From: Girardia tigrina
Taxonomy: Eukaryota
DNA length: 62,267 nt
Direction: 5' to 3'
Assembly: GCA_001938485.1 (NCBI GenBank)
Contig: MQRK01248532.1
Coordinates: 11,730-73,996 of the forward strand
Shown here: positions 33 through 62,018 of the stretch, in pieces
Numbering within the stretch: the first letter of the stretch is position 1
Layout of the letters: each line of letters starts with the position of its first letter
Notes under the pieces: generated by a model
Seen by the model: only the letters and a program-made list of their open reading frames with translations
Database searches by the model: none
Told to the model about the DNA's origin: nothing
Program-made: the position numbers and the translations under genes

Positions 33-357
33 AAGCTAATAAAAAGAATGGAAAAATATATGCAAGAAATGTTTTCTTAAACTTTATCTATAAATCACAA
101 TTGATTATAAAATTCTTTAAAAAATATACATAGGGTGTATATTAGGGTGATTACTTTTATACAACCTCATTTCCCTGTATAATATATGAATGAGTTTCCA
201 TGTAAGATTAGATAAAATCTTATATTCTAGATGATTTGATAAAAAAACCTCAATCAAAAAATGATTTCAAAAATTGTATTTATCACACATTATATAGAAT
301 CATCAAACAATCAATAATCATTAATGAAAATAAAAAATAAAAAAACTAATTAGAACG

Positions 358-480
358 ATGTCAAACGGTAAATGGTGTCCCGAGAGTTGTGATGACTCTA
401 AATGTGTTAATAACAAATATTCAAACAATAATTGTCTCAATGTTTTTAACAGGGGTAAAACACAAATTTTAGAAAATTGA
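358..480 (+). CDS. Small Cys-patterned ORF family member (40 aa), function unknown
   Basis: aattag-aacg-ATG; MSNGKWCPESCDDSKCVNNKYSNNNCLNVFNRGKTQILEN*; homologous to ORFs at 969(-), 47764(+) and 61568(-). Confidence 0.35.
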   Translation: MSNGKWCPESCDDSKCVNNKYSNNNCLNVFNRGKTQILEN

Positions 481-798: not shown

Positions 799-969
799 TT
801 AGACATTTTTAAACATCTCTGACTTAAAACAGCCAGTAATATTCGAAGATTTATGTTTTTTTTTTAAATTAAACTTGTTAAAAGCATCGAGACAATTATT
901 AGTAGAACATTTATTAATATCACATTTAGAGTCATCACAACTCTCAGAAGATCCCTCATAGGATGGCAT
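799..969 (-). CDS. Small Cys-patterned ORF family member (56 aa), function unknown
   Basis: caattag-aagg-ATG; MPSYEGSSESCDDSKCDINKCSTNNCLDAFNK...; inverted paralog of 358-480. Confidence 0.35.
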   Translation of the reverse strand: MPSYEGSSESCDDSKCDINKCSTNNCLDAFNKFNLKKKHKSSNITGCFKSEMFKNV

Positions 970-1029
970 CCTTCTAATTGATTTTATTTCTATAATAATG
1001 ATTATTCGAACCATTTTTCTTATAATAAA

Positions 1030-1810
1030 ATTTTTTATTCAATCAATATATTTCGACGGAATAGCCGTCATTATCAGGCGATTCTGATTCTAGCTGTTAA
1101 GCTGATATATGTTAAAATGATGATTATGCAATTTATTATGTAAGTACTGTTTCACATTTTCAACAAAGTTGATGAGTCACTTGATTGCACATTAATTGCT
1201 GGATTAACCGCTTTAATTATTAATGCCTCACACGAGACTCTTTCCAATAATTTTTAAAGTTGCTGCATAAAACTTTAAAATTATTTATTTCAACAGGCGA
1301 TTTACAATGTTTTTATGTTCAGTAATATTACCACTACCACTTAGATGTCCATGCTGACGAACCCGTTTACAGAGATGAGGGACTGTCTCTCCAATATATG
1401 TGACGTTGCACCCATTACACTCAAATTTATACAAAAGACCAGAGCATAAACTGAAAGGAGTTTTCGAATTATTACTGAAAATATTTTAAATACGATTTTT
1501 AAATTCAAATTCATAGCATTAATTGAACTTAGAATAGAATTTGAATTTTTTAAAACCTTCAGAATAAGGAACAGTTAATGTCTAACTACAATTAAGTCTC
1601 TCTTTCGTTCCTATGTTCCTATGATTAAAGGGTTGGTGTTTCGTTCTTGGTCTTTGTCTTCAACTTATTCATAGGCCAATTTTATTTTTAAAAAGTTGAG
1701 TGACCTTTTACATAAGAATCCGATATTCATAATCTTTCCTTGAGAAATTAACTAGAGAAACAATTGATAAATTATTTAAAGATGGTTTAAGTAAAATAAA
1801 TGAAGGAAAT
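1030..1810 (-). mobile_element. Penelope-like retroelement 3' fragment (GIY-YIG endonuclease) with an inverted RT-thumb segment
   Basis: Minus strand ~1170-1575 gives VPYSEG, GLLYKFECNGCNVTYIGETVPHLCKRVRQHG and EALIIKAVNPAINVQ. Plus strand ~1625-1790 gives IKGLVFRSWSLSS (PLE RT C-terminus). Degenerate hammerhead core at 1051-1077. Confidence 0.85.
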
Positions 1811-2134
1811 AATGATTTGATTATTATTATTTTAATTATGTTCGAATGGTTAATTTTCGTAAACACAAAAAAATACCAATTTCAATCTGGATGGGAGAAT
1901 CTCCATTCTAGATTCAACATATTCAAATCAACATACTGCATTCATACAATTTTAAATATTCCTCACAAAACTAAAGTGACTAAATTAAACTATAATCATT
2001 CATATTTATTAATAATAATAAAATAAAAATTTGAAATTATCTTATAAAATATATTCATTATAAATTTTCCGCTTTATCAATAATTACAAAAATCAAAGCG
2101 ATTGTCAAATTGATGATTTCGGCGTTTAGAATGG

Positions 2135-8469: not shown

Positions 8470-9199
8470 GTAAGAAATCATTTTTATGGATAGAAAGTCT
8501 ATTGAAATTTAAAATATTTTATTTCATTGAATCTAAATATATATTTACAACAAATTTTTTTTTCGTTATGTTTGTTAAGAACATTAAGACAATTTTCATT
8601 ATCATCTTTATTACAATCACATTTGGAATCATTATAACCCTCGCAAGACCTTACACTGTTGGGCATCGCTCTAATTGGTCTTTTTATATCTATTTTTTAA
8701 TCATGATTATTTGAACATTTCCTTCTAATTCTTTTTAAAATATTTATTTCATAAAAACTTTAATGAAAATAATAATTTTAACCATTTGTTTATAAAAACT
8801 CAGAATAATAAAAAAACTTTTTTTAAAAAATGAATTTAATTTAAATCTAATTAAACAGCAAAAGTGGAAGAATGTGGCTTTAAACTTGCTCGTTTCGGTG
8901 GGCGCACCGAACTTAGAACCCATTTGAATAAACACGAGTCCATCGATTATTTCAAAATGTATTTGATGCAAATACAGTAGACACAAATTTGAGAATCAAA
9001 TTTACAAAAAATATTCAGTCCACTCTTTTAAACACTCCGCGCGGCTAAATATTTAAACAACTCCTGAAATTTTATTATTTATTTTTAGAAACATTTTTCA
9101 CTTCTTTTGATATTAGACAAATGTTTTTTATTTACTAGTTAAATCTTCAGGTTTCACTTCAGGATTCGTAATAACAACAAGTAGAATTTATTAATTATT

Positions 9200-20474: not shown

Positions 20475-20890
20475 AATAATATTATTAATAAAAAAATTTT
20501 TTTATAAAAACAACCACGTTTTTCAAGCATTACCAATGCACTAAAAAGAGGAAAATAATTTTTTTTCTAGACATGTGAGAAATTTTATACCTAACCAAAA
20601 ACGTGGGGCGGATTTCTGAATCAATAGTGTGTTAAAAACATAATATTTTGCTTTTAGAAACTAGAAGAAAATTTTTAAATTTTAGAAGAATTTCGCCTAT
20701 CAGGAAGTGAAAGAAAAATTATTTTAAAGCTTTTTAGTAACAATCGATCATTTCTATGCCCCACGTTTTTGGTTAGGTATAAAATTTCGCACATGTCTAG
20801 AAAAAAAATATTTTCCTCTTTTTAGTGCATTGGTAATGATTGAAAAACGTGGTTGTTTTTATAAAAATTTTTTTTATTAATAATATTATT
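20475..20890. repeat. Fold-back inverted repeat (MITE-like)
   Basis: ~135-bp near-perfect arms 20475-20609 and 20758-20890 around a ~148-bp spacer. Confidence 0.8.
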
Positions 20891-21762: not shown

Positions 21763-22622
21763 GTATTAAATTTTTATTCTTTTTTTAAATTAAATTTAGA
21801 TTAATATATTTTCCTTCAAGAATAAGCTGAAATTTTGTTTTGTAATTATTTCTTGTTATTGTTGAAACTAGATATGAATGTGTAAATCAATACAGAGAGG
21901 AATTTAAGTTGTCAAGAAAATATTAATTTATTAAATTTTTATTATTTATAACTTTTCTTACTAATATAAGTAAATTAATGAAACAATTTTAACAACTTTC
22001 AATCATATTCAAGTATTATGACTCTAAAAATAATAATAATATTATTAATTTCCAGGAATGTTTGATGTGTTTGAATGTTGTGTATTGATTTTGGATTGTG
22101 TCTCTTCTACTCAGATGGCTGATTAATATTTTAATTCTTCTTATCTAAAACTAATTAGATTTAATTTAAAGTTTAATGTTTAAATTAATTATAAATTTAA
22201 AAATCGTTGTAAAATTTAAAACAGATGGAATAATTTATTTTAAATTTTTCAATAAATAAATCAAATTTATATTTTTTAGAATAATTAAATTTTATTTTAA
22301 TTTTAACCAATGAAATTTATGAGGTATATATTTTTTAAATATTGAAGTATCAAATTCGATTTAGATAATTTAAAAATATAAATATTAATCAAATTGAATG
22401 ATGCAAACCTACGAGAGGTGTTAATACTTGTCCTGAGGACATATCAACTTGTAATAATTGTAAAAATATCGAACATCATGTTTGTGTGTTCCTTGATTTC
22501 ATTGCCATTGTTTTTTACAAGTATTATATAACATGTAACAATAAATGATTTTGGTTTAAAACACACAAAGATGATGAAATTTCAATTTGTTTAAACAAAA
22601 GAATTCTTTTTATTAGCTTACT

Positions 22623-24960: not shown

Positions 24961-25856
24961 AGAGGCGGTGACCTTATCTCATCCTTACAAAAACAAATAA
25001 AGTGATAAACACTGAAGAAGACGCAAAAAGAATCACAAACTAGACCGAGTCAAAATTGCAGAATTGTGTTGAATTAACCAGATCGGCAAAACAATTGAGG
25101 AAGTCGACCAAAACACTTAAGATATTCCAGAAACTCAAAGTCATTTAGCAGCAGAACCTCAGACTACCTCTATTGTACTTGTGGAAAGGATCAGTGCTGA
25201 AAAAACAGGTCTGTTGTTTTAGGATCACAGGCTTATTTGCGAGTTCAGATATTTCTTTCGTAGCTATATAAAGTCCACCAATAGAGCCGAAAGCATGCAA
25301 AACAAGGAAAATACAATCAATTGGTGGTCGTTTCTTACTTGTAAGCCATAAAGATCTCAAAGACCGAAGCAATTCTACCCTGTGTCCTGTTTATCGATGG
25401 CGTGCTAGATACTCTTTAGTTTTGGTTGACTCTCTAAAGAGCCTAGAGATTCAATACCATTGAAAGTGATGGACGACTCCCTTTAGTCAATGAGTCAACA
25501 ATAGACCTTGCCCTTTATTCGAATCTTCAGAGTTTCTTCAAAAAAATATGATTTGTTTATTTTATTTAATAACTTCAACGCAGAGGTAGTCGGAAAAAAT
25601 TGATAAGAGAAAAATTTGTCTGAGTCGTTCACTGTTTTCAACTAACGATTTTTTATATTTATCAAGTTGTTAGGATTGTTTTCTTTCAACTCATCATGTT
25701 TTTTTAATATCGTGTATANNNNNNNNNNNNNNNNNNNNNNNNNNNNNNNNNNNNNNNNNNNNNNNNNNNNNNNNNNNNNNNNNNNNNNNNNNNNNNNNNN
25801 NNNNNNNNNNNNNNNNNNNNNNNNNNNNNNNNNNNNNNNNNNNNNNNNNNNTTTAA

Positions 25857-26255
25857 TATTTCGAAAATATAATTTGATTAAAGCTTTTTTTATATATTAT
25901 TGGACATGACATTTTTTCCATGTTTACATACATCATCATCAGCAATTTTAAAACAATTTTAATAGATACATTAACTTTAAAAGGTAAATTAGGAATTGAA
26001 TATTATTATTTATTAAAGTATTATTGAGTAATAATGGCAAAAATATTGTAATTAAAAATTTTAAGTAAAAAATAAAATATTTTTGCCATTATTACCCAAT
26101 AATACTTTAATAAATAATAATATTCAATCCCTAATTAACCTTTTAAAGTTAATGCATCTATTAAAATTGTTTTCAAATTGCTGATGATGGTGTATGTAAA
26201 CATCGAAACATGTCCAATAATTATATAAAAAAGCTTTAATCAAATTATATTTTCG

Positions 26256-26260
<5 letters not shown>
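25857..26260. repeat. Head-to-head palindrome of two hammerhead-bearing repeats
   Basis: Arms ~25857-26047 and ~26075-26260 are imperfect reverse complements; the left hammerhead (25899-25946, minus) is disrupted at GAAA. Confidence 0.85.
26177..26218 (+). ncRNA. Minimal type I hammerhead ribozyme motif (best-preserved copy)
   Basis: ATTG-CTGATGA-T-GGTGT(ATGTAA)ACATC-GAAA-CATG-TC-CAAT; stem I ATTG/CAAT, GUC cleavage triplet. Confidence 0.82.
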
Positions 26261-26304
<44 letters not shown>

Positions 26305-28736: not shown

Positions 28737-29751
28737 TATATAATTCATTAATATTAACTTGAAATATATTAATATTAATTTGAAATGCTGTTAGTATTAA
28801 TTTGAAATATAGTAAATATTATTATGAAAAACCCTGTAATTAAAATATAGTAAATATATTTGAAATATTACTGGAATAGTAGGCGTTTTTTACTTTTCAG
28901 GAATTTTTGCGATTTTTGGGGAGTGCACGTTTATTGGAATATTTACTATATGTATATAAATAAAAATAATTAAAGTAAAACAATGCTAATAACATTTATT
29001 ATAGAGTACAGGGCTGTGTTGGCAATAAATAAAGTGAAAATATTGGAACATGATAGGTTGGGTGTTAAAAGCCAAATAATAGAGTACCAGTATCCACTCA
29101 ATTGCACCTCTCATAACACAAATGTATGAAAAATTGTGAAATGTGTGAGAGATTAGATATTCAATTAATACCACACACAGTCAGTAAAGAGGTTATCAAA
29201 ATTTTATAGCAGCGTCTCCCAAACGTCCCCCTCTTCTCTACCACCTCCCCCCCCCCAAAAAAATGTCAAAATGCCCCCTGGGGGGTGATACCGCCCCCGT
29301 TGATAAACACTGCATTAGAGTATAATCCGCTTCGAAAATTACTTTTACAATCTAATGTACTTTAAAGATAAATTGAAATGCTCCTTCATTGACCCAAGAA
29401 AAGGAAAGTTTCTCGGTCGTAAAACAATGGCATAAACTGGCTATGCATTATCACCTTCATTATTAACACCGAACGGGAACATTCGTGCCCAGCTAATAAA
29501 AATGGCTGTAAAAGTAAAGACATTACATTTAGCTATGTTTCGTTGATAAGGTGTGTACTCTGAAGCTTCAGAACACATACGGAACATGTTTTGTTTCTCT
29601 GCCACCAAGCATTATGAAAAATTATGAAAATTATGGAAAATTCATATTACATAATTCTCGGCATTAATGGGTTAATCTTTTAGTTCTATCACTATAAAGC
29701 GGTATTGATTATTTTAATTAAATTTTTAGTATAAAATAAATATATACTATA

Positions 29752-31239
29752 CTACTGGACAAAATATTTGCAATTACATTTTCGTGCATTTTTAAAAGTT
29801 TTAGGTAAATTAGTTCTTTTTTAAACTAAAGTCAACCTATTGATGTATTATAATATACATTGACACATTTGTTTGNTTTAATAGTTTATTAGATAATAAT
29901 GAATTTGTGTATTTTTGTAATGTTTTTTTGGCCACATTTTTGCACTCATTTAATTTTTTTATTAGTAATAAAAATAAAACTAAGTAACATTTATTATACG
30001 CAATAATGCACCATCATTCTTTAATAATAGACACACATTTTCTTTAAAATGTCTATATAAGTTTGATAAAATACCAAACTCTTCATCATTGATTTTATCC
30101 ACTTCATGACAAATTCCAGACCATAGTGACTCTTTGCCATCAAATTGTGGACCATTATATAATCTCTGCTTAATAATACTCCAGACTTTCTCTATAGGAG
30201 ATAAGTCAGAGCTATGAGCTGGCCAGGGTAATATGTCTACTTTTTCAGCAGTAAGCATCTCAATGGTTTTCTTGCTTGTGTGCGCACGCGCGTTGTCTTG
30301 TTGGAATAAAAATGAATCTATTTCATTCTTTANCAACGGAAATATGTCGTCCTTCAACATATCACAATAGGAATTAGAATTAATGGTGCCTTCAACTCTT
30401 CTAACAAGCAATGGTCCATCACGGCTAATGCAACCCCAAATCATTATCGAGCCACAACCAAACGGTCGTTTTGCACGCTGTGTGTTATTATCTTTGCTCC
30501 ATGACATAAAGTTATCGTTGCCGTCGAGAGAAAAGCGGCACTCATCAGAAAAAACATTTTTGTCAAAATCGACATTTTCAATAATCCATGACCGCACTAT
30601 TTCTACTCTTTTGGCCTTCTGATTGTCTGCCAATTGTATCCTTTGACATCTCCTACGATAACTCAATCCCATTGAACAAATACGCCTTCGTATCGTGCGG
30701 GTGGACACATTGTTGGACAATATATTGCCAATTGCCACTGATGTCACTTTTTTATGACCCTTTTCTAAAGACACTATAGCTTTTTTAATTTCATTGTTTA
30801 TTTTATCTTTCTTCNNNNNNNNNNNCCTTGGAGGATTAAAACCTCTTGCACCACTTGCGACACTATAAATCGTCCTCAGGCTAACATTTAGGGTCTCAGC
30901 TATGACCTTTTTGGAGGTTCCTTTCAATAAATAATTTTTAATTATATCAATTTTTTCAACGCTTAGCGTCATTCTAAATATCTAAAAATAATATATCTAT
31001 CAAAAGAACATTAAATAATTAATTACAAAACATTAAAATATAGTAATGCAAAAATATGGCCAAAAAAACATTACAAAAATACGCAAATTCATTATTATTT
31101 ATTGAACTACTAAAACAAACAAATGTGTCAATATATATTATAATACATCAATAGGTTGACTTTAGTTTAAAAAAGAATTAGTTTACCTAAAACTTTTAAA
31201 AATGCACCAAAATGTAATTGCAAATATTTTGTCCAGTAG
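29752..31239 (-). mobile_element. Full-length Tc1-family transposon with ~195-bp TIRs
   Basis: TIRs begin CTACTGGACAAAATATTTGCAATT; TA flanks on both sides. Confidence 0.95.
29980..30972 (-). CDS. Tc1 DD34E transposase, apparently uninterrupted (330 aa)
   Basis: FSDE, FQQDNA and DLSPIE with 34 residues between the second D and the E; a few N bases. Confidence 0.9.
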   Translation of the reverse strand: MTLSVEKIDIIKNYLLKGTSKKVIAETLNVSLRTIYSVASGARGFNPPRXXXXKKDKINNEIKKAIVSLEKGHKKVTSVAIGNILSNNVSTRTIRRRICSMGLSYRRRCQRIQLADNQKAKRVEIVRSWIIENVDFDKNVFSDECRFSLDGNDNFMSWSKDNNTQRAKRPFGCGSIMIWGCISRDGPLLVRRVEGTINSNSYCDMLKDDIFPLXKNEIDSFLFQQDNARAHTSKKTIEMLTAEKVDILPWPAHSSDLSPIEKVWSIIKQRLYNGPQFDGKESLWSGICHEVDKINDEEFGILSNLYRHFKENVCLLLKNDGALLRIINVT

Positions 31240-31951
31240 TATATAAATCATTTAATATACAAAACATGTTATTTTTTAATATTTTTATATTTTTATGTAC
31301 ATCTACAGTCAATTTAATCTTATGCATCATTACTTATATATAATTAACTTATTAATTAATAATATTAGGTAACTAGGTTTTGTTATAATAGAAATCTTAT
31401 GCACAAATACAAACTTAAAACACTTTGATAATTTTAAAATGTATCCTTGTCTTTAATTTATATATGGTGATAAAATCTAGATCGATTTCGGTAGTACTGA
31501 GGGATTCTTACGTATCGAAATTCCCTTTATTTCCCATTTTCAATTTGATCACTGCTGAGCTTTTGCTTTAAGTATAAGAAACTTGATCTACTAAAGTTAA
31601 TTTACTAAAACTGAGATTATATTTTCCTTTCATTAATTTTTATTTACACAAAAACGAAATTTCACACATTCAAATAATTGTCATTTTTTAGAAAAATATA
31701 TTATTAAAAATTTTAAAAATTAAATGACATATTAATATTTTTTTAATAAATCCTTTTAGTGTTTTGAGTTATTTCTATCTAATCAAAATTTTGAAAAATA
31801 TTCTGCAGTTGATACAGACTCCTTTTTGGTTTTATTTTGGTAATTTTAACGATATGTTCTATCAATGGACGATCCACCCGATGATGTTCTGATAAGAACG
31901 AAACATAATGTGAATTGTGAAACTAATTATTATCTCCGAACTTTCTTTATA

Positions 31952-46820: not shown

Positions 46821-47763
46821 ATGTATATTTATATTATTTATAGTTAGACAATTTTAAATTTTGAATCGATGCGAAAAGAGCTTCACTATTATTATCATTT
46901 AAATACAGTTTTTTAGCTTTAATTCATTTTAAGATATAATCTTATTTTGCAGATGTTATTCCAAAAAGAAAAAAACCAAACGTTCACCGCAATAATTAAT
47001 ATAATACTCATCAGAATTCCACCAGTTATTAGGTTTATTTAAGTTATTTAAATCGATAATTCTGTTGTTACAGTGAACAATAGACGTTTCTATAGCATAC
47101 ATCTTTTTTTAAAATTCAATTGTTTTCAAATTTTCGTAATTATCAATCAAAGACTAAAAACTCAATTCCTTTTTTTCAAAATTTTTTATTTATATAATTA
47201 CAATTGGTGCAGGTAAACAAACTGCAATTTAATCAATATATATATATNNNNNNNNNNNNNNNNNNNNNNNNNNNNNNNNNNNNNNNNNNNNNNNNNNNNN
47301 NNNNNNNNNNNNNNNATATATATATATATATAATATAAATTTTTACAAATTTCTTTTTTTATACACGCAGACACGTTCACAAAAGACATACATCACAATC
47401 ATATCCAATGATTGATTTTTAAGTCTGTGAGGAATATTTGAATGTTTGATGTTTTGTGTTTGAAGGTGTATGTTGATTTGGAATGTGTCTCTCCTACCCA
47501 GATGGATGATTAATATTTTAATTCTTATTATCTAAAAATATGTAATGTTTAAATTTATTTTATTTCAAATAATTGTAAAATTTTAAATAAGTTAATTAAT
47601 TTTTATAATATTTAATAAATAAATCAAATTAATATTTTTTAAATAATTAATAATGATTTTAATTATTATCCAATAAGTTTTGAGTAAATATTTTATTAAA
47701 ATATTTATTTCCCCATTTGTAAAAAAATAATGAGAATTAATTCATTAATCAATTTCGTTTAGA

Positions 47764-47901
47764 ATGCAAATGTACGAAAGTTTTGACAAAGATTGTCTAA
47801 CAGACAATCAAAATTGTTGTTTAAATAAAAATATAAAAAGTCAAATTTGTTTTCTTAATAAAGTCATCTTAAGAAATCTATATACACACAAATGTTTATA
47901 A
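47764..47901 (+). CDS. Small Cys-patterned ORF family member (45 aa), function unknown
   Basis: tttag-a-ATG; MQMYESFDKDCLTDNQNCCLNKNIKSQICFLNKVILRNLYTHKCL*. Confidence 0.35.
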   Translation: MQMYESFDKDCLTDNQNCCLNKNIKSQICFLNKVILRNLYTHKCL

Positions 47902-49911
47902 TTAATTAATTCATTAATCTGAATCTTTCAATTTAAACATATTTTACTTTTTTCTTTCATCTTTTTATTTTTAAAAATAACAAACTTATTTTGTAATTTT
48001 AATTTGGAATATCAACATACAATCTTAAGGAAAGATTACAAATATCGTTTGTAATAAGTAATGAAAAGACTGCAAAACATTTAAAGAAACATAAAACCTA
48101 GTTACTTTGATCAAAGCAAGCTTTCAACACACTACGTTATATGTTTGTTTATAAAGAAATATGCATTTTTTCTTGTTATTATTTTTATAAGTTGATATAA
48201 GTTTAATCAATTTTGACTTAAGCTTAAAAATACAAAAATTAGGGGATTAAGAAACAATCATTTTTATAATGGCAACAAAAATTAACTCAAAGATAGTGAA
48301 ATCAATAAAGAACAACAAAAAATTGGGAATCAGATTGTTTTTCGAGAAAGAAATTAAGTTGCAGCTTGAGGAATACTTTGAATGGTGTTGTGTTTGTTGT
48401 ATTTTGTGAATAAAGACTATTCAAACAGAACCATAAAAGGTGAAAACAATTGACCTTACTGTACGTAGAAAAGTTGACCTTTCTGTATCCTTATTTTGTG
48501 ACCTCAAATACAAAGACAACCGAATTTCATTCTTTTCTTTTTTCCATACACAGATCATCGCTGTATTTCATGGTTACGAACATTTTTATAATACCATGTA
48601 TCTAAAATTTATTTTCGCCTCGTCAATATAATTTTCTCTCAGTATGTTTTTATCTCGTGTTTCACTAAAGTTCTTTTTTTTAATGTCACATTTTCTCGCC
48701 ATGAAAATATTTTAAAATTTTTATATAAAATGTTGATAAAATAACACTCTCTCCTAATAACTGTCAAAATGCTTACACAGAATTTTGAAATTATCAATAC
48801 TAACATTAGAAAGATTAGAAATATTAGAAAGAGTAATATTGCAGAACATAGGAAAAAATGAATTGAGAATTTTTTTTAAACAAATTTTTCCTAGTACAAC
48901 GCCATTTCATAAAAATCCGATATACGCGTCAAATGTAATCTCACAAATTCATTCGTTTAATTTGATAAAAAATAATAATTCTGTCATCATTAAAAATTTC
49001 CTTTGTAAAGACAAAATTTAGTTTGTCCATTAGTTGTTGAGACATATTTACTAAAGTCAAATAAGTTCTCAGGGGGCAGCTTCAATAGACAGGCAGAAGT
49101 ACTTGCTCTTCCTTTATTCCTATTTCAAATCATCTAATTAGCAAGTTTCAATTGTTTAGTTTTGGTTATTTATTTAAAATTATTTTTTTACATTTTTAAT
49201 CCTCAAATTTTGTGATAAAAAAGAAAGTTTTCAATGTAAATTGGATATGGAAATATCTAATAATGAAGATTGTTTTAATTTAATATTTTATTATATATTT
49301 CACAATGAATAATAAATTTTCAAACTCTATCCTTCCTTTATACAAAAGGACTTCCTTCTGACTTTACTGAGTCTTACTTTGTCTCGGAAGTTTTCCTTCC
49401 AGAAGCAAAGTCAATTCTATATTTTTATAGGTTTTACAAAAGATTAATAATAATACTATTTCCAGAATAAACTTTTTATTTTTATATTGAAAATTGTATT
49501 TGATTGTATAATTTATGAATTTTGAAACGCATTTTATCACACCGGCGTCAATTTACATTTATAATGGCTTTTATACTTAGAGTTCTGTGAAATTGTTTTA
49601 TTACTTTCATTGAAAAAATATTTTTGTTTTATCTTTAAGAGAAACGTGATTTACAATGCGATTTTAAAATATATTTCCGTCTATGAAAATTATTGAATAG
49701 AAAAGTTTTACTATGAACTTGAATAATTATCTTTTGTCCAAACTACACACAAAAGTTACATATATATTTCTATTAATAATATTTTATTAACAACAATATA
49801 TTTATATTAATCTTTTGTACTATCCCGTGCACAGTATGAAAGCTACACCTTACGCTGTCGTTCAGACGACTAGGAACTTCCGTTCTATAAATAACTATAT
49901 AATTAATAAAA

Positions 49912-51441: not shown

Positions 51442-54400
51442 AATTATATAAAAAAAGCTTTAATCAAATTATATTTTCGAAATACTAAACTTGCGTTCAC
51501 AAGACTCAATATTATATAATTATAAATATAAATATAAATATAAATACAAATATAAATATAAATATAAAATAAATATAATTATAATTATAAATATAAATAT
51601 GAATATAAATAAAAATATAAAGTCCATTAATTTAAAACTTAATTAACGGTTGGAGATTTAGAAGAAACCTATCTTCTCTTAATAAATGAATGATCTACAT
51701 AAAATATCTACTGGCGTGAAAGAATATACAGTATACTCAAGGATTATTAATTATTTACCATAATTAAAAGCTTGCTGATGAGAGAATTAACATTTAGTTA
51801 GCCAAATTTCGTAATAAAATTATCATTTTATTCTGATTTTAGTTTAAAAAGATGTGGAAGCGCTGGCAAAAACCATTGTACACATAAGGTTAGATAGGTT
51901 CTTGATAATGGTAAATTGTATTGAAGGGGTGCTTCATGATATGATTGGTTATTTATTATTAGATTTTAATGAAATTAATTTTTTTATGACTTCTTGCAAA
52001 TGTTTAGATTGTAAATGAACACATTTTAATACGATTTGAGCATTTTTATTAGTCTATTTTACTTTTCGGTCGTTTTTAGGCTTTTTAATTTTAATGGCTA
52101 TTTTTAAGTCAATTGTATATTTAAATGTTCATGTTAGGTTGGGAATTAACTTCCCTTCTAAATCAAAAAGAAATTAAAACTTGCAAACTTTTTTCAAAAA
52201 CTACAACAGATTAAATTTGTTATTTAAACAAATTTTCATTTTTTTTATTTTCTTTGTTTTAATTATATTTTTCATTATTTTTTTTAATTTCGATTATAAT
52301 TCGAAATTTTAAAAAATCCAAAATTCCTATTTCCGAAGTTAAAAATTAACAACAACCCTCTTTTACAGTTCAATTTTTAATTTTTTGTCCATATTTCATT
52401 TTTAGTTCATTTTTACATATTTTCTATTCCTATATTTACAATTAAACACGTAATGTCATTTCTGAATCTTTTAATTTAAATTTAAAATGTCATAATAAAC
52501 ATTGCTTAAATAATATAAAAGATATAAATTTTTAGAAGGTTCTTGTAAATTATTTGGAATATTTCCTATGCAAAATAAAGCCATTAACATCACAACACTT
52601 GCGTCATTTAACAAATGAATTAGGAAGTAATATATTCTCTACTATTAAAAAAATTGGTTTTGCGAAATTTGTGATACGAAAATAGCAAATGAGAAGCGAT
52701 TTACAATGGAATGTTGAGGTTGCCTTCATTTATGATGATAACTTGACGCCTTAGAACACTTGGTGATGCTCGGAGACCCCAGGTTAACCATCCTTAACGT
52801 TTTATTAACTTATCCGACTCTCAATAATTTCACTTCCTCGGTGAATTACAGCTCTCTATCTGACATCTGCAAGCAGTGTTGGACTTCAAGTTGCTTTCAG
52901 GTTCAATGCGACAGTGAGTATAACCCGTTTCTGAGGGATATGAATTTAAATCTACACTATTTACATTGAAGTTATTCCTCCATCTCAGGTCAAATGCTCT
53001 TAATGCCATGATAGCACGCCGATCATCACTCTTGAGACACACGGGAACATTTGAATTTATGATTAATTTCTAACACCACAAGTGTGCTTACCATAAATAC
53101 TATTATATCATTTAAACATAAGTTCAAACATCTATATCAGTATTATTGTTAAGTGATTTTATTGCTAAATCGGTAGCTACAAACCAAAGAGAGTAGATGG
53201 TAATCGCTCAGAGCATGCTCAACGGCGCACTCGCATCACCCTCATAGATCCCTCATCTTCATTCGTTCATTGTTCCAAGAAATTGTTCCAAAAGTTCTGG
53301 AGAAATAAATGATTTATTGAATGATTGGATGGATGGAAAGGTTAATTGAATTTGAAATGGAATAGTATGAGACATGGAAAGAGAGAAGAATTGACACAAA
53401 TAAATCCGAATGAATTTTATCAACTATTTTTTCCGAAGATTCAAAATTTAAATAGCCAATGAATTTTGATTTCGATTATTCTATTTCATATGTTGAAACA
53501 AGATTGCACTTCTCCTCTATTAAATCCGTTTTATTTTGAAGTAAATTTATTCATATAATAAATGTCTCACTGGCATAGAAATGACAAATTAAGTCACTAT
53601 TGTTAATTATTAAAAAACAAGATGAAAATAATTATTATCATTGATTTAATGTAAAAATATTTCATATATTTATATTTTTAATTTAATTATTGTGAGGAAT
53701 ATTTTAAATTTGGTATTTTGAAAATGGTTTGTTGAATTTTGTATGTTGAGTTTAGTATTTGGAAATGTGCTTCTTTCACCGAAGTGGAAAATTGATATTT
53801 TAGATGTTCACAATAAATAATTATCGAGTATAATTTGCATTTTAAAGTACAGTATAAGATATTTAAAAAAAACTTTCAAAATATTAAATCGTTTAAAATT
53901 TGAATATTAAATTATTTTTGTAAAGTAAATAATTTTTAACTTATTTATAAATTCAATAAATATTTTTTTCTTTTTAAATAAAATCATTTTAAAATTAAAT
54001 TAATTTTTAGATCAAATTATTAAAAAAATTATAAAAGTAGAATTTATGAAAATAAAATTTGAAAATGATTTAAAATAAAAATTTGTTCGAATAATTGATT
54101 ATTAACGAGACATTAACAAAAAGTTATCAATTTAGTGAGATGTCTAATTATATATATACCCCGACAAAAGAGCCCACCAACATAAACACCACGACAAAAA
54201 CGACCAACGAGAAAAGAGCTCTTACATAAGCGTCCCGACAAGAACCCGAAAATATTATTTCTATTTTTTTTTAAATTCTCACTTAAAATATGTAAAATTT
54301 GATAATATAAAATTTTTGTTTAAATTTTTAACACGCATGATCATTATTTCTGCTATTACTATATTGTTTAAATCCCAAATATTAAACAACTTTTTGAATA

Positions 54401-54629
54401 TTTGCAAAAATATTTGTTAAACATATTATTTGGGATTTAAGCAGTATATAAATAGTAGAAATAGTGATACTTTCTGTTAAGAATTAAAACAAAAATTTTT
54501 ACAAAATTTCAAAGTTTTATAGTAAACAGTATTAATAATAACTCATTATATTTATACCAATAGTATTTAAATTTTAGAATGGCACCATGATTTAACAAAG
54601 TTCTAAAATTATAAAACTGATTTTTAATA

Positions 54630-55928
54630 TTAGGTGTACAACTAATTAATTTCGTATTTGTTACGAAATAACCTTATATTCGTATTTGTTACCTCATTTC
54701 ATATTTGTTACCTCATTTCGAATTTGTTACTAACCTCATATCTATTTATGTAGTCAATAGTCAATTTTATTGAATTTTAGTAAACACACAAATTTTTTTT
54801 ATTGCAGTCAAAATGTCAAATTACGTTCCAACAAAACAACATTTGCGGGGAGGTTTGCTTTTGTTATTTAATTTAAGGAAAAGTGCAACAGAAGCACATC
54901 GTTTACTCTCAGAAGCTTATCCTGAATATGCTCCAGAGGTTAGAGTATGTCAGCAGTGGTTTGCACGATTTAAAAGTGGCGATTTTGACACAGAAGACAA
55001 AGAGCGATCAGGTACATCAAAACAGTTTGAAGACAAAGAATTGGAGGCATTACTCGATCAATATCCATGTCAAACTCAAGAAGAACTTGGAAAAAACATT
55101 GGAAGTCACTCAACAAGCCATTTCTAAACGTTTAAAAGCAGCCGGATACATTCAGAAACAAGGAAATTGGGTGCCACACGAATTGAAGCCGAGAGACNTT
55201 GAGAGACGATTTTGCATGTCTGAAATGCTGCTTAATCGCCACAAAAAGAAACCGTTTTCACATCGTATTGTCACTGGCGATGAAAAGTGGATTCATTACG
55301 ACAACCCAAAGCGTAAAAAATCATATGTGAAGCCGGGCCAACCAGCCAAATCGACACCAAAGCCGAATATTCATAGTTTGAAGGTAATGCTCTGTATTTG
55401 GTGGGATCAGAAGCGTGTGCTGTACTATGAGCTGTTAAAATCGGGCCAGACGATCACGGGAGAGCTATACAGGCAACAATTGATACGTTTGAAGCAAGCA
55501 ATAGCCGAAAAACGGCCAGAATGGGCGACCAGACACGAGAAATTGATTTTCCATCATGACAATGCTCGGCCACATGTTGCAGTACCGGACAAAAATTATT
55601 TGGAAAATGCCGGATGGGAAATTCTACCTCACCCGCCTTATAGCCCAGACATAGCTTCTTTTGATTACCACTTGTTTCGGTCGATGTAGAATCACCTTTC
55701 TGGAATACGGTTCACCAATGTTGAAGGTATTAAAAAATGGCTTGATGACTTTCTCGGCGCAAAAGATGAGAAATTTTTTTTGGGATGGAATCCATAAATT
55801 GCCTGACAGATGGGAAAAGGTTGCCGCTTCCGATGGACAATATTTTGAATAAAATATTTTTTCACTTTTATATTTAAATAAATGGTTTTTTTAACAAAAA
55901 ATACGAAATTAATTAGTTGTACACCCAA
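54630..55928 (+). mobile_element. Full-length Mos1-like (mauritiana subfamily) mariner, frameshifted
   Basis: TIRs TTRGGTGTACAACTAATTAATTTCGTAT, TA flanks, ~1.3 kb; MSNYVPTKQHLR start, WVPHEL, TGDEKW, HHDNA, PPYSPDIA. Confidence 0.95.
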
Positions 55929-57009: not shown

Positions 57010-57253
57010 AATACAATTTTTTATTTCGACGGAATATCCGTCATCATCAGGCGATTTTGATTGTAGCTGTAAAGCTGATATATGTTAAAATGATGATTAT
57101 GCAATCAATTATGCAATTACTGTTTCACGCAAAAACTCTCAACAAAGTTGATGAGTCACTTGATTGGACATTAATTTCTGGATTAACCGCTTTAATAATT
57201 AATGCCTCACATGAAGCTCTTTCCCAATAGTTTTTAAAATTGTTGTATAAAAC
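57010..57253 (-). mobile_element. Penelope-like element 3' end (same family as 1030-1275) with hammerhead core
   Basis: High similarity to 1030-1275; EALIIKAVNPEINVQ; CTGATGA-T-GACGGA(TAT)TCCGTC-GAAA at 57024-57050 (minus). Confidence 0.85.
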
Positions 57254-61421: not shown

Positions 61422-61568
61422 TCAATTATAAATAAAATTAAAATATCCAGGAAATAAAAAATAATTATTATTATTAAGAACACCAACATGGCTTTTCGAA
61501 CTTTTATTTTCAATACAATCAGAATTGTCTTTTGGACAACTCTCAGCAAAGCTTTCGTAATTCGACAT
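61422..61568 (-). CDS. Small Cys-patterned ORF family member (48 aa), function unknown
   Basis: caatttag-aacg-ATG; MSNYESFAESCPKDNSDCIENKSSKSHVGVLNNNNYFLFPGYFNFIYN*. Confidence 0.35.
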   Translation of the reverse strand: MSNYESFAESCPKDNSDCIENKSSKSHVGVLNNNNYFLFPGYFNFIYN

Positions 61569-61883
61569 CGTTCTAAATTGATAATTTTAGTTAATGTGTT
61601 TTAATAAACAATTATTCAAACAAAATTTTCATTATTTTCAGATTTTATTTTTAAAGTTCAAATTTTGTAATTTTAGTAATAATTTTATCTACATATTAAT
61701 TTTATTTAAAAAATTATTTTATGGAAAGAAAGAACATTTATTTAATTTGAAAATTAGTTAAAAGCTATTTACTTTATTTAAATTTTTAATATGAAAATTT
61801 GAAACGATTTATTATTTTTAAAGTTTTTTAAATATCTTATGCTGTACTTTACAATGCAAATTATACTCGAATAATTATTTATC

Positions 61884-62018
61884 GTGAATATCCAAAATAT
61901 CAATTTTCCATCTGGGTGGGAGAAACACATTTCAACACATTCTCATTTGAAACACATTCTCAACATACAAAATTCAACAAACCAATTTCAACATACCAAA
62001 TTTTAAATATTCCTCTCA
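61884..62018 (+). repeat. WW-like module of the dispersed two-module unit
   Basis: Homologous to 1856-1975(+), 22052-22150(-), 47426-47537(-) and 53691-53811(-); most end aaatattcctc. Confidence 0.65.

What the first reader, a model, noticed from the sequence alone, without database searches (positions are those of the whole stretch)
47426..47901. Recurrent head-to-head two-module unit: WW-like segment divergent from the Cys micro-ORF
Seen: the two modules keep a divergent orientation and a ~230-330 bp AT-rich spacer at 22052-22560, 47426-47901, 53691-54150 and 61422-62018. At 799-1975 the same pair is split by a Penelope insertion. Copies occur in both orientations, inside and outside the DYNC2LI1 gene, and are strongly diverged; I found no TIR, LTR, TSD or poly-A. 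Inference: either an old unclassified mobile unit (e.g. Helitron/Polinton-derived) or a repeatedly duplicated bidirectional mini-gene pair sharing a promoter. Five copies in 62 kb implies high genomic abundance.
Basis: partly seen in the sequence, partly recalled or inferred. Interest (0 to 1): 0.7.

Follow-up and report, generated by a model that had tools for sequence, protein, structure and literature searches.

The report
Solo LTRs carrying the gag start
The repeated two-module unit is the leftover end repeat (solo LTR) of several related retrovirus-like jumping genes, not a pair of mini-genes; its small cysteine-rich reading frame is likely the first 32 residues of the element's capsid protein, and its tRNA primer site sits inside that gene, a layout described for yeast Ty1.

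Summary
The unit is real but is a solo LTR of Ty3/Gypsy retrotransposons. Window 47426-47860 has TG...TA ends and a perfect 5-bp target duplication, with 39 of 39 other scored genomic hits 94-96% identical. Full 5.1-kb elements carry gag-PR-RT-RNaseH-IN, a polypurine tract and a tRNA-Arg(ACG) primer site. The five window copies differ because they belong to different families, not because all are old. The 'WW-like' module is the non-coding LTR start. The 'Cys micro-ORF' is the LTR end: it holds a fixed AATAAA and runs in frame into gag, with an ATG 31-32 codons upstream in three gag-anchored families (22 and 25 in two more), so Gag likely starts inside the LTR; amino-acid constraint is weak. 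The primer site lies in gag and is predicted to pair about 23 tRNA bases with single-base bulges. About 10 of 100 listed junctions instead carry a primer copy, and all 4 that rejoin gag are out of frame, which fits Ty1/Ty3-type non-inheritance of the primer site. The scan found solo LTRs on other DNA of this genome before. Ordinary class, unusual variant.

The parts
47426..47860 (+). Solo LTR, family F1, 435 bp, TG...TA ends
   Evidence: Sharp ends in 20 loci; 406 of 439 columns identical to the 5' LTR of full element L114
47421..47425 (+). Left target-site duplication AAGTC
47861..47865 (+). Right target-site duplication AAGTC
47426..47510 (+). 'WW-like' module: non-coding LTR 5' end (likely U3) with integrase end, TG-rich repeats and a conserved motif at 47491-47504; in 3' LTRs the pol stop codon is LTR bases 3-5
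47764..47859 (+). 'Cys micro-ORF': 32 codons, in frame with gag in 5' LTRs; likely the Gag N-terminus
47824..47829 (+). AATAAA inside the micro-ORF (its conserved Asn-Lys); predicted poly(A) signal
   Evidence: 157 of 181 LTR ends have it 34-45 nt from the end; seven control windows gave 0-34
61472..62018 (-). Solo LTR, family F2, 547 bp, duplication ATAAT, micro-ORF 61473-61568
876..1967 (-). Solo LTR ending in CA, duplication AGTTT, interrupted by a Penelope-like fragment (about 1049-1850)
53691..54151 (+). LTR, family F4, 3'-truncated four codons into the micro-ORF
22054..22495 (+). Old eroded LTR, no duplication left; best genomic hits 75-82% identical
332..451 (+). Lone LTR 3' end (CA) with open micro-ORF
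8573..8696 (-). Lone LTR 3' end (CA) with open micro-ORF

Best explanation
The unit is a solo LTR of a clade of compact Ty3/Gypsy retrotransposons, likely left by recombination between an element's two LTRs, and its two modules are the LTR's two functional ends. Shown: integration with 5-bp duplications; full elements of 5.1 kb; priming by host tRNA-Arg(ACG); the last LTR base plus the first two primer-site bases form a Met codon of gag; the LTR's last 94-97 nt are an ATG-led open frame continuous with gag. Inferred: transcription starts in the LTR just upstream of that ATG, Gag begins there (about 0.65), and the same stretch serves as R/U5 with the poly(A) signal and integrase end, which explains its conservation. 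Inferred: because the primer site is gag coding sequence it pairs with the tRNA as a bulged helix (about 0.7), and the element normally avoids copying the primer back into it, as Ty1 and Ty3 do (about 0.65). The rare copies that took the primer sequence are frameshifted or joined to other DNA.
For: Duplications: 27 of 47 LTR copies lacking a primer site or purine tract match 5/5 and 17 more match 4/5; none is perfect at 4 or 6 bp. Full elements L114 (LTRs 425/439 identical, duplication CTAAT) and L115 (ATCAC). Domains: CCHC, RVT_1, RT_RNaseH, Integrase_H2C2, rve; best solved-structure hit Ty3 RT, E 3e-56. Primer: tRNA-Arg(ACG) genes in L197; reverse copies of its 3' end with CCA fused directly to LTR ends, 14-42 nt perfect, 5 of 9 stopping at 17-18 nt next to tRNA position 58, and one with its first mismatch at that position. 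Frame: anchored on gag alone, 26 of 28 (F2) and 16 of 21 (F8) upstream regions are open in the gag frame against 0-5 in other frames, with the ATG at 32 codons in 20 of 28 and at 31 in 14 of 21; 150 of 181 LTR ends are open in that frame against 0 and 37; further families have the first ATG in frame at 22, 25 and 32 codons; 5 of 5 full-length homologous Gag proteins carry the extension. Primer site: third positions of its seven codons barely differ between families (pS 0.04-0.09 against 0.66-0.82 downstream); duplex -33.2 kcal/mol against -22.2 for the next of 13 other tRNA types; 7 of 20000 shuffles reach the observed pairing length. Of the first 100 of 1357 junctions listed, 87 are doubly bulged and 9 tRNA-perfect; all 4 tRNA-like junctions that rejoin gag are out of frame.
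Against: Amino-acid constraint on the LTR-coded codons is not shown: pN/pS 0.74 in frame against 0.70-0.90 in the other five frames; dN/dS 0.35, 0.39 and 0.95 against 0.04-0.19 in gag proper, with no excess at third positions. At cluster level only 16 of 30 are open and ATG phases among representatives are 15/5/8, as many singletons are decayed. The stop-avoidance probabilities (0.005 and 0.058) used representatives picked among open ones, so they overstate the case. The junction Met also has a good start context and could be the true start. 1.6% of synonymous recodings pair as far as the real primer site, and one family pairs only 11 nt without bulges (L298-L300). No start site, poly(A) site, strand or peptide was observed. 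One old family (L060/L069) differs at the primer site and has stops in the extension.
Confidence: 0.85

Rival explanations
1. Same solo LTRs, but the micro-ORF is not translated: Gag starts at the junction Met, and the upstream frame stays open as a by-product of conserved RNA and DNA signals (poly(A) signal, GU-rich element, integrase end).
For: No frame-specific dN/dS signal; the most conserved residues (Asn-Lys and the last four) coincide with AATAAA and the LTR end; shuffled modules stay open 4-8% of the time.
Against: An ATG is kept in the gag frame at four different distances (22, 25, 31, 32 codons), while gaps elsewhere in the LTR are mostly not multiples of three.
Confidence: 0.33
2. 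A duplicated bidirectional host mini-gene pair (WW-like and Cys-rich peptides) sharing a promoter.
For: A five-residue resemblance to a WW start in 41 of 92 copies; an open micro-ORF.
Against: Stop at the W codon in 42 of 92, frame open in 10 of 92, frameshifting gaps between families; no Pfam match; the unit flanks gag-pol as direct repeats.
Confidence: 0.01
3. A Helitron- or Polinton-derived or otherwise unclassified non-autonomous element.
For: No long terminal inverted repeat; AT-rich body; non-canonical TA end.
Against: 5-bp duplications, primer site, purine tract and gag-pol between paired copies.
Confidence: 0.01

Closest known systems
Ty3/Gypsy (Metaviridae) retrotransposons and their solo LTRs; yeast Ty3 (PMC5371799: passages and section 2.2 read)
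   Same: Domain order PR-RT-RNaseH-IN, RT closest to Ty3 among solved structures, 5-bp duplication, short perfect primer match, primer sequence apparently seldom inherited.
   Different: In Ty3 the primer site lies in untranslated regions and is split between the RNA ends, with tRNA-iMet. Here it is contiguous, bulged, inside gag, and uses tRNA-Arg(ACG).
Yeast Ty1 (Ty1/copia) (PMC5454406: passages read; PMC4551931: passages read)
   Same: GAG starts inside the LTR (my deduction from the paper's numbers: 334-bp LTR, RNA from nt 241, 53-nt leader); the primer site is GAG coding sequence; pairing extends into the tRNA T and D arms.
   Different: Ty1 belongs to the other superfamily (integrase before RT; own knowledge), uses tRNA-iMet, has about 14 LTR-coded codons and separate pairing boxes. 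Here there are 22-32 codons and single-base bulges.
Steamer elements, Gypsy C-clade (PMC8905726: passages and first part of the Steamer section read)
   Same: About 5 kb, primer site immediately after the LTR, LTR ending in an A-rich ...ACA motif.
   Different: Steamer has LTRs of 153-219 bp, a tRNA-Leu site and a single ORF. Here LTRs are about 410-550 bp, the primer is tRNA-Arg, and gag has its own stop. Clade kinship was not tested.
Non-canonical TG...TA LTRs (LTR_retriever, 10.1101/137141: passages read; its supplement was closed)
   Same: TGTA is one of its seven non-canonical motifs.
   Different: Reported from plants, 89% of classified non-canonical elements being Copia. Here a Gypsy clade has TA (169 of 181 ends sampled) and CA families, the change being silent in an Asn codon of the gag frame.

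Membership tests
Ty3/Gypsy LTR retrotransposon | Paired direct terminal repeats around an internal region | tested here: met
   L114 1318-1755 and 6006-6443, 425/439 identical; L115 likewise
Ty3/Gypsy LTR retrotransposon | 4-6 bp target-site duplication | tested here: met
   5 bp; 44 of 47 copies match at least 4/5
Ty3/Gypsy LTR retrotransposon | tRNA primer site after the 5' LTR and purine tract before the 3' LTR | tested here: met
   tRNA-Arg(ACG); purine run abutting the 3' LTR in L020, L114, L115, L119
Ty3/Gypsy LTR retrotransposon | gag, then PR-RT-RNaseH-integrase (integrase last) | tested here: met
   Pfam on L114 frames; protease motif in L109 and PF13975 on close homologues; Ty3 RT best hit
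Ty3/Gypsy LTR retrotransposon | Canonical TG...CA termini (typical, not obligatory) | tested here: inconclusive
   169 of 181 ends are TA and 12 are CA; TGTA is a described variant
A named Gypsy lineage (Mag, C-clade, 412/mdg1, etc.) | Placement in an RT tree with reference elements | not tested
   The 120 best homologues listed were unnamed or generically named; no tree built
Errantivirus or endogenous retrovirus | env ORF after pol | tested here: not met
   pol runs to a stop inside the 3' LTR in L114 and L115; no room for a third ORF
WW domain | About 35 residues with two Trp and a central aromatic pair in an open frame | tested here: not met
Helitron / Polinton | Helitron: no duplication, TC...CTRR ends; Polinton: long inverted repeats, 6-bp duplication (own knowledge) | tested here: not met
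   5-bp duplication, TG...TA ends, no long inverted repeat in the self-comparison
Ty1-like layout (works like) | gag frame begins in the LTR and includes the primer site | tested here: met
   at sequence level only
Ty1-like layout (works like) | Translation actually initiates at the LTR ATG | not testable with these tools
   only contigs were available

The most novel reading that the evidence does not exclude
An animal Ty3/Gypsy clade has independently evolved the Ty1 layout: Gag starts inside the LTR and the primer site is a 23-25 nt helix whose every non-paired base is a single bulge, so primer site and gag peptide are one code. That forces the element to avoid inheriting its primer. The genome keeps a countable fossil record of the failures (primer stops at tRNA position 58, read-throughs, frameshifted gag), and thousands of solo LTRs each seed a start codon with an open frame running out into host DNA.
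Probability: 0.45. Interest if true: 0.58.

Novelty: new variant of a known kind. Interest (0 to 1): 0.36.

Why it matters
The reported unit is ordinary retrotransposon debris and should be masked, not annotated as mini-genes. What is worth keeping is the layout. Non-inheritance of the primer site has been shown in yeast Ty1 and Ty3 (as reviewed in PMC5371799). Here an animal element with more than 1300 junctions allows it to be measured from sequence alone, because primer-derived and element-derived sites differ by bulges. The TA end also means that TG...CA-only LTR finders would miss these families.

Tried and rejected
Rfam scan of the window: no family. WW domain and micro-ORF against Pfam: nothing. 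dN/dS as proof of coding in the micro-ORF: not distinct from other frames, weak. Self-priming or tRNA-independent priming: dropped once primer copies were found. Splice or spliced-leader acceptor at the AG before the ATG: the AG is missing in some families, and no GT-AG joint or foreign leader appeared among the joints and loose ends shown (both tables were cut, contigs only). RNA evidence: two runs on record as RNA (X2, X6, one study) hold contigs over all 30 bins of L114, but contigs show no strand, start or level, and no silent control stretch was laid, so expression is not claimed. The missing 3' part of the 53691 LTR was not found in the window. Literature: searches for a Gypsy element with gag starting in the LTR gave 0, 0 and 0 papers and two off-target listings (PMC11117352 passage read: there pol, not gag, overlaps the LTR). 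These were narrow phrase searches, so precedent is not excluded. The Ty1 review, the original Steamer paper and the Ty strand-transfer paper were not held. PMC6431247 (passages read) describes giant Burro elements, which this 5.1-kb element is not. No structure prediction or lineage tree was run. The host group was not tested; earlier notes call it a flatworm.

Full report
1. Observation. A self-comparison of the window links the five places named, at 73-86% identity over parts, and Rfam finds nothing. Searching the genome with 47400-47920 gave 2940 first-look candidates; 40 were scored, and the 39 other than the window are 94-96% identical and span the same 435-440 bp. In 20 fetched loci the ends are sharp: TG at 47426, TA at 47860. 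Ten have a perfect 5-bp duplication, five have 4/5, three are followed by one shared TGG-led sequence, one is preceded by a purine run and one is unexplained. Over all loci held then, 88 complete copies were found: 38 with the TGG-led flank, 3 with the purine run, and of the other 47, 27 match 5/5 and 17 match 4/5, with none perfect at 4 or 6 bp. In the window, copies 47426-47860, 61472-62018 and 876-1967 have perfect duplications; 53691-54151 is cut short; the copy at about 22054-22495 is eroded.

2. What it is. The TGG-led flank runs into gag with two CCHC knuckles, and the purine run follows the end of an integrase frame. Of 20 stretches fetched around RT hits, L114 and L115 are complete: two LTRs, matching 5-bp duplications, 5126 bp for L114, LTRs 425/439 identical. 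Pfam gives zf-CCHC, RVT_1, RT_RNaseH, Integrase_H2C2 and rve in that order, and the nearest solved RT is Ty3. The unit is therefore a solo LTR of Ty3/Gypsy elements. That it arose by LTR-LTR recombination is the standard inference (own knowledge). The window copies belong to different families of one clade, with LTRs about 60% identical but Gag 57-93%. No named lineage could be assigned.

3. The 'WW-like' module is the LTR's first 100 bp read backwards. The resemblance is five residues. The Trp codon is a stop in 42 of 92 copies, including this one; the frame is open to the LTR start in 10 of 92; gaps between families shift the frame; Pfam finds nothing. What is kept is the integrase end and a short DNA motif. 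In 3' LTRs, bases 3-5 are the pol stop.

4. The 'Cys micro-ORF' (47764-47859) has no stop inside the LTR. In 5' LTRs the last LTR base and the first two primer-site bases form a Met codon, and the frame continues into gag. To avoid circularity I anchored on gag alone. After dropping duplicates, loci with too little upstream DNA and four loci without a recognisable junction, 26 of 28 F2 and 16 of 21 F8 upstream regions are open in the gag frame (other frames 0 and 5, 0 and 0), with an ATG 32 codons up in 20 of 28 and 31 codons up in 14 of 21. Across 181 distinct LTR ends the gag frame is open in 150, the others in 0 and 37, though only 16 of 30 clusters are open. Three further families have their first ATG in frame at 22, 25 and 32 codons, and five of five full-length homologous Gag proteins carry the extension. 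Against a constrained peptide: pN/pS is 0.74 in frame and 0.70-0.90 in other frames; dN/dS between families is 0.35, 0.39 and 0.95, against 0.04-0.19 in gag proper. The best-kept residues coincide with signals: AATAAA lies 34-45 nt from the end in 157 of 181 (controls 0-34). I read this as R/U5 doing double duty: frame and start are kept, residues are mostly free. Translation from the LTR ATG is inferred, about 0.65.

5. The primer. One aberrant copy carried a long reverse copy of a tRNA end. That pattern occurs 18 times in the genome, including tRNA-Arg(ACG) genes without CCA and copies with CCA fused to LTR ends. The ordinary site matches the tRNA perfectly for only 7 nt but continues as blocks of 7, 4, 3, 1, 4 and 4 separated by single extra bases on the element side. 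The duplex is -33.2 kcal/mol against -22.2 for the next tRNA type tested; 7 of 20000 shuffles and 1.6% of synonymous recodings pair as far. Silent positions in these seven codons hardly differ between families whose downstream silent sites are near saturation, so the constraint is at nucleotide level. Of 1357 junctions, the first 100 were listed: 87 doubly bulged, 4 singly, 9 tRNA-perfect. I fetched those 13. Five of the nine stop at 17-18 nt, next to tRNA position 58, and join unrelated, inverted-LTR or pol DNA; one reads on with its first mismatch at that position; three rejoin gag out of frame. One singly bulged copy is also out of frame, and the other three are a separate family with a native 11-nt site in frame. 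A retrovirus-type cycle would be expected to hand the primer sequence to about half of insertions (own knowledge). About a tenth fits the Ty1/Ty3 route in which the primer is not inherited (PMC5371799, section 2.2 read). This step is inference, and survivor bias among families could contribute.

6. Comparison. Membership in Ty3/Gypsy is met on structure; the TA end is a described non-canonical motif (10.1101/137141, passages), and here TA/CA is a silent change in an Asn codon. The layout works like Ty1, whose primer site is GAG coding sequence and whose GAG start falls in the LTR by the numbers in PMC5454406 (passages), while Ty3's site is in untranslated regions. Steamer also has its primer site flush with the LTR (PMC8905726). 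Four phrase searches found no Gypsy element described with gag starting in the LTR, which is weak evidence of absence.

7. Expression. Contigs of two RNA runs of one study cover the element, but they show no strand, start or level and may include DNA, so nothing is claimed.

8. Verdict. The part that survives is the micro-ORF, as a likely LTR-coded Gag N-terminus tied to a bulged, coding primer site. New variant of a known kind; interest 0.36.

Noticed in passing
L193:350-429: An LTR end fused to a reverse copy of the whole tRNA-Arg (73 of 76 bases match), followed by four bases that match the tRNA gene's upstream leader; possibly a primer with an untrimmed 5' leader, or chance.
   Followed up: partly
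L192, L194-L196, L303, L305: Other LTR families with different ends also carry 36-39 nt reverse copies of the same tRNA-Arg, stopping near the anticodon loop; several clades share this primer.
   Followed up: partly
L291, L293: LTR, 17 nt of primer copy, then LTR sequence (inverted start in L291), resembling snap-back products of reverse transcription.
   Followed up: partly
L304: LTR end, 38 nt of tRNA copy, then a second LTR head to tail: looks like a two-LTR junction that kept its primer.
   Followed up: no
window 54152-54900: TA-flanked element with short subterminal repeats and an internal palindrome (54309-54499) abuts the truncated LTR; a mariner-like transposase frame lies at 54774-55686.
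   Followed up: no
window 1049-1273 and 57022-57253: Two 88%-identical copies of a Penelope-like terminal segment; the first 40 bases look like a minimal hammerhead ribozyme (recalled motif; Rfam found none at threshold).
   Followed up: no
window 25856-26261, 20475-20890, 29716-31273: Large palindromic or inverted-repeat elements (82-89% arm identity), probably MITE-like.
   Followed up: no
L185 and neighbours: tRNA genes in tandem arrays; tRNA-Tyr(GTA) genes were called without an intron.
   Followed up: no
L114:2773-3051: A Cys-rich frame at the start of pol overlapping the end of gag, with short TG-rich repeats; possible frameshift region, no Pfam match.
   Followed up: no
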